Positions 42,647-42,695 of a stretch of 64,000 bases of DNA are shown in pieces. The DNA is from Escherichia phage EC.P1, in the sequence record PQ657772.1, one strand, 5' to 3'. Position 1 is the stretch's first letter; every line of letters begins with the position of its first letter. Below the pieces are notes generated by a model. That model was not told where the DNA came from. It saw only the letters and a list, made by a program, of their open reading frames with translations, and searched no databases. The position numbers and the translations under genes were made by a program.

Positions 42647-42695
42647 CAGCACCCTTCAGCACCCTTTAGCACCCTTTAACAACCTTTAACAACTT
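42647..42695. repeat. 10-bp direct tandem repeat, about 5 units
   Basis: cagcaccctt, cagcaccctt, tagcaccctt, taacaacctt, taacaactt; overlaps stop codon of 42676..43302. Confidence 0.7.

What the first reader, a model, noticed from the sequence alone, without database searches (positions are those of the whole stretch)
42647..42695. Five-unit 10-bp direct tandem repeat at the 3' end of a family A gene
cagcaccctt / cagcaccctt / tagcaccctt / taacaacctt / taacaactt sits across the stop codon of 42676..43302 in a locally GC-richer segment. Short tandem repeats can mediate slipped-strand length variation and could alter the C-terminus.
Basis: seen in the sequence. Interest (0 to 1): 0.35.

Follow-up and report, generated by a model that had tools for sequence, protein, structure and literature searches.

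The report
Variable 10-base repeat between phage genes
A 10-base tandem repeat at the junction of two unknown-function genes in a jumbo E. coli phage really does vary in copy number (2 to 5) between related phages, but it changes no protein, only the length of the untranslated gap between the genes, so it is an ordinary slippage hotspot.

Summary
Five head-to-tail 10-nt units lie at 42647-42696, across the TAA stop (42676-42678) of a minus-strand gene. The array ends directly against the ATG (42646-42644) of the next gene.

The window is an Asteriusvirus-type (PBECO4/121Q-like) jumbo coliphage. Among 12 sequences carrying this repeat:
- 5 units: the window
- 4 units: CMSTMSU
- 3 units: five phages and three metagenome contigs
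- 2 units: Turkey3 and TH47

Turkey3 (2 units) and the metagenome contigs (3 units) have identical +/-120-nt flanks, so the copy number changes recurrently.

Every allele encodes the same upstream C-terminus (...KVVKGC) and the same 53-aa downstream ORF. Simulated +/-1 unit changes leave both intact.

Only the stop-to-start spacing changes: -1 (TGATG overlap), +9, +19 and +29 nt. The number of weak Shine-Dalgarno-like AAGGG motifs also changes.

Best reading: a near-neutral slipped-strand VNTR, tolerated because the unit sequence re-creates Gly-Cys-stop and the native ribosome-binding context. A modest effect on translational coupling of the small downstream gene is possible but untested. Ordinary; low interest.

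The parts
42647..42696 (-). Five-unit 10-nt tandem array. On the coding (minus) strand it reads AAAGTTGTTA / AAGGTTGTTA / AAGGGTGCTA / AAGGGTGCTG / AAGGGTGCTG.
   Evidence: Sequence; TRF period 10, scores 61 and 49; length-polymorphic in 10-nt steps among relatives.
42676..43230 (-). Upstream gene, 184 aa, homologue of 121Q gp360, a member of the 'FQ-S' paralogue family. It ends ...ISKVVKGC. Its last 6 codons and stop lie in units 1-2 and the first base of unit 3.
   Evidence: ORF list; 555-nt CDS annotated in six relatives; phrog_30243 E=2.8e-65, unknown function; no Pfam or PDB match; exact protein also found in vB_Ec-M-J.
42676..42678 (-). [quoted passage not shown]
42647..42675 (-). 29-nt intercistronic spacer made entirely of repeat units 3-5. 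It carries three weak Shine-Dalgarno-like AAGGG motifs. The corresponding spacing is -1 nt (overlap) in 2-unit alleles, 9 nt in 3-unit alleles and 19 nt in the 4-unit allele.
   Evidence: Allele table; duplex energy with the 16S 3' end is -4.2 kcal/mol per unit against -13.2 for a perfect SD.
42644..42646 (-). [quoted passage not shown] In 2-unit alleles it overlaps the upstream stop as TGATG.
   Evidence: CDS boundaries annotated in Turkey3 (1405/1405) and fEgEco12 (1405/1415).
42485..42646 (-). Downstream gene, 53 aa, homologue of 121Q gp361. The ORF is kept at 53-56 aa in all 22 relatives examined.
   Evidence: phrog_29794 E=2.2e-34, unknown function; ORF conservation; no Pfam or PDB match.

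Best explanation
The tract is a hypervariable 10-nt tandem repeat (a VNTR) at the junction of two co-directional genes of an Asteriusvirus-type jumbo coliphage. It is produced by slipped-strand mispairing, or equivalently by unequal exchange between short direct repeats. It is tolerated because it is silent at the protein level. The seed is a quasi-repeat in the 2-unit form, AAAGTTGTTA|AAGGGTGCTG, with 6 of 10 bases identical. That form is made of the last codons of the upstream gene (K V V K G C) followed by TGATG, where the stop and the next start overlap. Three different exact 10-nt duplications (TTGTTAAAGG, TAAAGGGTGC, AAGGGTGCTG) account for all observed alleles, and the window carries one of each. 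They are harmless for two reasons. First, the frame-shifted reading of an added unit again spells Gly-Cys-stop: GGT TGT TAA or GGG TGC TAA instead of GGG TGC TGA. Second, the 3'-most unit always restores the native AAGGGTGCTG-ATG ribosome-binding context. The only consequence is that the overlap (-1) becomes an untranslated spacer of 9, 19 or 29 nt carrying one to three weak SD-like motifs. I infer this is neutral or nearly so. At most it loosens translational coupling of the 53-aa downstream gene to its upstream neighbour. Shown: the array, its alleles, protein invariance and recurrence. Inferred: slippage as the mechanism, and near-neutrality.
For: - Array and coordinates.
- Alleles of 2, 3, 4 and 5 units in 12 sequences, all with C-terminus ...KV(V/I)KGC, an intact 53-aa downstream ORF and spacing -1/9/19/29.
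- Each allele is derivable from the 2-unit form by exact 10-nt tandem duplications. All three observed registers fall in the zone where duplication preserves the protein, while duplications starting further upstream change it.
- +/-1 unit simulation on the window allele is silent in 79 of 82 registers.
- Recurrence: Turkey3 (2 units) and three metagenome contigs (3 units) share an identical +/-120-nt haplotype, and 3-unit alleles occur on two haplotypes.
- The nearest relative in 2.2 kb of flank, fEgEco12 (0.9% distance), differs by two units.
- Over 40 kb compared with four relatives, this is the only multi-allelic tandem-duplication site and the only one whose unit is not a multiple of 3.
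- In the sister clade the same junction carries an independent 7-nt TGTATGA duplication just after the stop (21- versus 28-nt spacer), so the junction tolerates insertions.
- No Rfam family, promoter or terminator lies at the site.
- The unit is not a dispersed motif.
- Predicted accessibility of the RBS is similar in the 3-, 4- and 5-unit alleles (0.46-0.47) and a little higher in the 2-unit allele (0.62).
Against: - Neutrality is not demonstrated. The changes move a stop/start overlap to +29 nt, a range over which some studies report a 3- to 10-fold loss of translational coupling (review PMC12548453).
- All inferred changes in the window and CMSTMSU lineages are expansions. The sister clade keeps a 21-28-nt spacer. 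Together these could hint at selection for a longer spacer.
- The direction of change (expansion or contraction) cannot be polarised, because the flanks are mosaic.
- The sample is small, and the three metagenome contigs may be a single phage.
- The 4-unit allele comes from CMSTMSU, an 'UNVERIFIED' record with about 200 indel blocks against the window in 40 kb.
Confidence: 0.72

Rival explanations
1. Expression tuning. The array acts as a contingency-type knob. By changing the stop-to-start distance in 10-nt steps, and by adding tandem SD-like AAGGG motifs, it switches the 53-aa downstream gene from tightly coupled termination-reinitiation (TGATG overlap) to more independent or weaker initiation. 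Selection would then favour different settings in different hosts.
For: Spacing changes from -1 to +29 nt while both proteins and the proximal RBS are preserved. Coupling is reported to be most efficient at -4 to +3 nt and 3- to 10-fold lower by about +40 nt (PMC12548453). Changes recur on closely related backgrounds. The window has accumulated three separate duplications. The sister clade keeps a 21-28-nt spacer and also gained 7 nt there.
Against: Other studies cited in the same review found no effect of spacing from -4 to +25 nt. The AAGGG motifs are weak (-4.2 kcal/mol). Predicted RBS accessibility barely differs between alleles. The pattern is equally expected from mutation plus purifying selection that simply removes protein-altering variants. 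The downstream gene's function is unknown, so no benefit can be proposed. There are no data on within-population switching.
Confidence: 0.18
2. Recombination scar. The duplications are footprints of illegitimate or unequal recombination between co-infecting relatives at a gene boundary (a mosaic joint), not of intramolecular replication slippage.
For: The flanks are mosaic. Upstream of the array the window matches the fEgEco12-type haplotype. Downstream it shares several sites with TH47. Trees built from upstream and downstream flanks disagree.
Against: The Turkey3 versus metagenome-contig difference lies on identical flanks, so no exchange of flanking markers accompanied it. All events are exact 10-nt tandem duplications in three registers, the classic slippage signature. 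The two mechanisms give the same product and are hard to separate from sequence alone.
Confidence: 0.08
3. Artefact. The copy-number differences are sequencing or assembly errors.
For: CMSTMSU, Ecwhy_1 and TH47 are flagged UNVERIFIED. CMSTMSU shows about 200 small indel blocks against the window in 40 kb.
Against: The 3-unit allele is identical in five independently sequenced phages from Finland, Thailand and elsewhere, and in three metagenome contigs. A 20-50-nt array is far shorter than a sequencing read. The differences are exact multiples of 10 nt with perfect unit boundaries, unlike the 1-nt homopolymer errors that dominate the CMSTMSU comparison.
Confidence: 0.02

Closest known systems
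Simple-sequence/VNTR polymorphism generated by slipped-strand mispairing (Streisinger-type slippage; the class of loci used for MLVA typing). Named from general knowledge, not from a tool result.
   Same: Head-to-tail short units, integer copy-number differences between close relatives, recurrence on identical flanking haplotypes, and exact duplications between short direct repeats.
   Different: The unit is 10 nt and the array has only 2-5 imperfect units. It straddles a stop codon yet is silent, because the shifted frame re-encodes Gly-Cys-stop.
Bacterial contingency loci / phase variation by repeat tracts in ORFs or promoters (for example tetranucleotide repeats in Haemophilus, pentanucleotide repeats in Neisseria opa, hypermutable poly-G tracts reported in Campylobacter phage receptor-binding genes). 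All recalled from memory.
   Same: A mutable repeat placed at a position relevant to gene expression.
   Different: Unit changes here do not shift any reading frame and do not alter a promoter. No ON/OFF switch is possible. At most there is a graded effect on translation initiation of the downstream gene.
Translationally coupled gene pairs with -1 nt spacing (TGATG/TAATG stop-start overlap), reviewed in PMC12548453.
   Same: The 2-unit alleles (Turkey3, TH47) have the TGATG overlap and UE-S1 has TAATG. The genes are co-directional and tightly packed like their neighbours.
   Different: In the window the overlap has been replaced by a 29-nt spacer built from repeat units. Whether coupling exists in any allele has not been measured.

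Membership tests
Slippage-type tandem repeat (VNTR) | Two or more head-to-tail copies of a short unit with high identity | tested here: met
   TRF period 10, 4.1 copies, 90% match, score 61. Two units are identical and the others differ at 1-4 of 10 positions. Alone this is only modestly above chance (19/200 shuffles).
Slippage-type tandem repeat (VNTR) | Copy number differs by whole units among close relatives | tested here: met
   2, 3, 4 and 5 units in 12 sequences. Match lengths are 371/381/391/401.
Slippage-type tandem repeat (VNTR) | Unit change occurs without change in the flanking haplotype (recurrent local mutation rather than inheritance or recombination) | tested here: met
   Turkey3 (2 units) and the OERM/OEQX/OEQM contigs (3 units) are identical at all 19 variable sites within +/-120 nt.
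Slippage-type tandem repeat (VNTR) | Length heterogeneity within a clonal population / measurable slippage rate | not testable with these tools
   Needs read-level data or passage experiments.
Contingency locus (phase variation) | Unit gain or loss shifts a reading frame or promoter spacing, so that expression switches ON/OFF | tested here: not met
   All natural alleles and 79 of 82 simulated +/-10-nt changes keep both proteins. No promoter-like element spans the array.
Contingency locus (phase variation) | High-frequency reversible switching with a phenotypic consequence | not testable with these tools
   No population or phenotype data.
Translationally coupled gene pair | Co-directional ORFs with a stop/start overlap or spacing of about -4 to +3 nt | tested here: not met
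   Window spacing is +29 nt. The feature is met only in the 2-unit relatives (TGATG, -1) and UE-S1 (TAATG).
Translationally coupled gene pair | Downstream translation depends on upstream translation | not testable with these tools
   Requires reporter assays with an upstream premature stop.
Known structured RNA / cis-regulatory RNA family | Match to a curated covariance model | tested here: not met
   No Rfam hit at E<=1 in 41500-44000. Folding shows only weak wobble-rich pairing between units.
Protein-coding tandem repeat | Repeat units translated in frame as a peptide repeat | tested here: not met
   The unit is 10 nt, not a multiple of 3. Only units 1-2 are coding, and units 3-5 lie after the stop.

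The most novel reading that the evidence does not exclude
The array is a selected 'rheostat'. Slippage in 10-nt steps converts a termination-reinitiation (TGATG) junction into an independent initiation site with one to three tandem SD-like motifs. This would give a jumbo phage heritable but rapidly adjustable dosage of a small early protein (the gp361 homologue), for example in response to different hosts. It would be a phage contingency locus acting on translational coupling rather than on reading frame.
Probability: 0.07. Interest if true: 0.5.

Novelty: new member of a known kind. Interest (0 to 1): 0.17.

Why it matters
Mostly it matters as a clean negative. A repeat lying across a stop codon looks as if it should remodel a protein, but here the unit sequence makes every expansion silent, so nothing about the encoded proteins is variable. 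Practically, the locus is a fast-evolving length marker. It separates very closely related Asteriusvirus isolates, such as fEgEco12 and this phage, which differ by 0.9% in 2.2 kb of flank but by two repeat units. It could also serve as a natural series (-1, +9, +19, +29 nt) for testing how stop-start spacing affects translational coupling in a phage operon. It also warns annotators that the small downstream gene is missed in several records: CMSTMSU, vB_Ec-M-J, Ecwhy_1, phAPEC6 and BF17 have no CDS there.

Tried and rejected
- Dispersed-motif idea: AAGGGTGCT with up to 1 mismatch occurs 10 times against 5.7 expected, and the only exact copies are the three in the array. Rejected.
- Promoter or terminator at the junction: none. 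The regional promoter-like count matches the shuffles, and there are zero terminators.
- Known RNA family: no Rfam match.
- RNA-structure effect on the RBS: mean unpaired probability over -13..+3 is 0.62 (2 units) against 0.46-0.47 (3-5 units). The difference is small and not graded.
- Function of the flanking proteins: PHROGs of unknown function, no Pfam hit, and no meaningful PDB hit (best E=0.037, partial).
- More alleles: IMG/VR with two anchors gave 0. GTDB genomes with two anchors gave 0. E. coli complete genomes and PLSDB plasmids gave no match. The exact-protein look-up returned only the already-known vB_Ec-M-J record, and nothing for the 53-aa protein. JGI metagenomes gave three contigs, all 3-unit.
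- Polarising expansion against contraction with flank trees: the upstream and downstream trees conflict (mosaicism), so direction is left open.
- I did not run the large protein-homology or structure searches, because they could not change the verdict on the repeat.

Full report
**What is there**

The + strand of 42647-42696 reads cagcaccctt cagcaccctt tagcaccctt taacaacctt taacaacttt. TRF calls it a period-10 array: 4.1 copies, 90% match, score 61, plus an overlapping row with score 49. All genes in this part of the window are on the minus strand. Read in the coding direction the array is AAAGTTGTTA AAGGTTGTTA AAGGGTGCTA AAGGGTGCTG AAGGGTGCTG, followed directly by ATGAAAGAG.

The upstream gene is 42676-43230, 184 aa. 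The 208-aa ORF listed from 43302 is the longest reading; six relatives annotate the 555-nt version. It ends AAA GTT GTT AAA GGT TGT TAA, that is ...K V V K G C stop, with the stop at 42678-42676. The remaining 29 nt of the array (42675-42647) are untranslated. The array then abuts the ATG (42646-42644) of a 53-aa gene at 42485-42646.

The segment is also GC-richer than its surroundings, 44.9% against 33.3%.

On the single sequence the array is not strongly beyond chance. In 200 dinucleotide-preserving shuffles of the window, 19 produced a TRF array scoring 61 or more.

**Where the window comes from**

A 6-kb query matches 35 phage records, all Escherichia or Salmonella jumbo phages of about 320-386 kb in the genus Asteriusvirus (PBECO4, 121Q and relatives). 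The best is 95.9% identical (taxonomy). A 401-nt query centred on the repeat matches 32 records. In the nine closest, the matched length is 391, 381, 371 or 382 nt instead of 401. I fetched 19 of these loci. A search of metagenome contigs with a flanking anchor gave three more.

**Copy-number variation**

The junction reads as follows.

| Units | Sequences | Junction | Stop-to-ATG spacing |
|---|---|---|---|
| 5 | the window | AAAGTTGTTA AAGGTTGTTA AAGGGTGCTA AAGGGTGCTG AAGGGTGCTG | +29 nt |
| 4 | CMSTMSU | AAAG + TTGTTAAAGG x3 + GTGCTG | +19 nt |
| 3 | vB_Ec-M-J, fEgEco12, WPEC5, WPEC3, Ecwhy_1 and three metagenome contigs | AAAGTTGTTA AAGGGTGCTA AAGGGTGCTG | +9 nt |
| 2 | Turkey3, TH47 | AAAGTTGTTA AAGGGTGCTG | -1 nt (TGATG overlap) |

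Starting from the 2-unit form, three exact 10-nt tandem duplications in different registers explain everything:
- TAAAGGGTGC gives the 3-unit allele.
- TTGTTAAAGG occurs once in the window and twice in CMSTMSU.
- AAGGGTGCTG occurs in the window.

**Recurrence**

Within +/-120 nt of the array there are 19 variable sites. Turkey3 (2 units) and the three metagenome contigs (3 units) are identical at all of them, and 3-unit alleles sit on two different haplotypes. In 2.2 kb of flanks the window's nearest relative is fEgEco12, at 0.9% distance, yet the two differ by two units.

I aligned 40 kb around the site with fEgEco12, Turkey3, CMSTMSU and Ecwhy_1. This is the only multi-allelic tandem-duplication indel and the only one whose unit is not a multiple of three. 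The other tandem-copy indels are single 6-9-nt in-frame events near 31240, 36994 and 53703. The site is therefore a local hotspot.

At least five or six gain or loss events are needed for 12 sequences. Direction cannot be polarised, because the upstream and downstream flank trees disagree and the window's downstream flank shares sites with TH47.

**Consequences for the genes**

Every allele encodes the same upstream C-terminus ...EDYISKVVKGC (TH47 has KVIKGC through a substitution) and an intact 53-aa downstream ORF. There are two reasons.
- The frame-shifted reading of an added unit again spells Gly-Cys-stop: GGT TGT TAA or GGG TGC TAA, in place of GGG TGC TGA.
- The 3'-most unit always restores AAGGGTGCTG-ATG.

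I enumerated all 10-nt tandem duplications on the 2-unit form. Those beginning in or after TTGTTAAAGG are silent, while those beginning further upstream change the protein. All three observed registers lie in the silent zone.

On the window's allele, a 10-nt deletion in all 41 registers and a 10-nt duplication in 38 of 41 registers leave the upstream protein unchanged, and none touches the downstream ORF.

**What does change**

Only the stop-to-start spacing and the number of AAGGG motifs change. Each AAGGG pairs weakly with the 16S rRNA 3' end: -4.2 kcal/mol against -13.2 for a perfect SD. The last motif lies 5 nt before the ATG in all alleles.

Predicted accessibility of the initiation region is 0.62 for 2 units and 0.46-0.47 for 3-5 units, which is small and not graded. 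No sigma-70-like promoter or intrinsic terminator spans the site. No Rfam family matches. The unit is not a dispersed motif.

According to a 2025 review, translational coupling is most efficient at -4 to +3 nt and is 3- to 10-fold lower by about +40 nt. Some systematic studies cited there saw no effect up to +25 nt (PMC12548453). A modest effect on the downstream gene is therefore possible but cannot be judged from sequence.

**The same junction in more distant relatives**

- PBECO4-type phages end the upstream gene ...KVVNV-TGA and have a 28-nt spacer containing TGTATGA twice.
- 121Q, BF17 and slurp01 have TGTATGA once, with a 21-nt spacer. This is an independent 7-nt tandem duplication immediately after the stop.
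- ph0011 has a 13-nt non-repetitive spacer.
- UE-S1 has a TAATG overlap and a different C-terminus.

The junction evidently tolerates insertions as long as the two ORFs survive. This fits a model of mutation followed by purifying selection.

**The flanking genes**

Both are conserved phage ORFs of unknown function: phrog_30243 and phrog_29794, with no Pfam hit and no meaningful PDB hit. The 53-aa ORF stays open at 53-56 aa in all relatives, across up to 24 nt differences in 159 nt. Several records do not annotate it.

**Interpretation**

The best-supported explanation is a near-neutral slipped-strand VNTR (confidence about 0.72). The rivals are:
- selected tuning of translational coupling (about 0.18)
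- scars of inter-genome illegitimate recombination (about 0.08)
- assembly artefact (about 0.02)

The artefact reading is excluded in practice by identical 3-unit alleles in five independent isolates and three metagenome contigs. The caveat is that the 4-unit allele comes from a poor-quality record.

The papers I checked on this phage group mention only the ~20-kb terminal repeats, not this locus.

**Verdict**

The finding is real and copy-number-variable, but it has no effect on any protein. It is a new example of a well-known kind of sequence, of low general interest.

Noticed in passing
window 22870-52793, minus strand (for example 33474-33953, 39391-39831, 40300-40791, 44915-45490, 51545-51907): At least 25 of 132 ATG-ORFs of 80 aa or more share a short motif [FYWLM][FY]Q[QEYL][SNKT][LTA][VIL], usually preceded by acidic residues (for example SEEEYFQYSLVHD, EELFQESLVFDKK). 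The motif lies about 40-60 aa before the C-terminus, and otherwise the proteins barely align. Members fall in several PHROGs (12674, 9317 and others), all of unknown function, and have no Pfam match.
   Followed up: partly
L010-L015 versus L016-L018, about 1385-1410 in locus coordinates (same gene junction in PBECO4/121Q-type phages): An independent 7-nt tandem duplication (TGTATGA, 2 copies against 1) lies immediately after the upstream stop codon. It gives 28- and 21-nt spacers.
   Followed up: yes
window 31220-31240, about 36994, and 53684-53703: Three other small tandem-copy indel polymorphisms relative to close relatives: 9 nt TTATGAATT, 6 nt AAAAGG and 9 nt GCACAGACA. All are multiples of 3 and each was seen as a single event.
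   Followed up: partly
window 40300-40800 (gene 40300-40791, minus strand), including TRF array 40601-40647: The highest-scoring tandem repeat in the window (period 21, 2.2 copies, score 80) encodes a repeated ...DTETC(V/I)LDT... peptide. This gene is also the most indel-rich stretch in the comparisons with fEgEco12, Turkey3 and CMSTMSU.
   Followed up: no
window 42400-42800 against L003 (fEgEco12) and L008 (TH47): The flanks of the array are mosaic. Upstream, the window matches the fEgEco12-type haplotype. Downstream, it shares several sites with TH47. This suggests a recombination joint near the gene boundary.
   Followed up: partly
L025 (MH494197.1, CMSTMSU): This 'UNVERIFIED_ORG' record shows 204 indel blocks against the window in 40 kb, against 23-61 for the other relatives, and has a fragmented gene annotation. 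It is probably an error-prone assembly, so its alleles should be used with caution.
   Followed up: partly
window 52001-64000: Composition shifts here. AT skew drops to between -0.15 and -0.22 at 52-58 kb, GC skew approaches 0, and GC rises to about 0.40 at 60-62 kb, against about 0.29-0.35 earlier in the window. This suggests a boundary between genome modules.
   Followed up: no
window 42647-42678, minus strand: The window has gained exactly 30 nt (three units) relative to the 2-unit form. The ancestral TGA that overlaps the ATG is therefore again in frame with the upstream gene. Read-through of the TAA would add 10 residues and end at the original TGATG.
   Followed up: no
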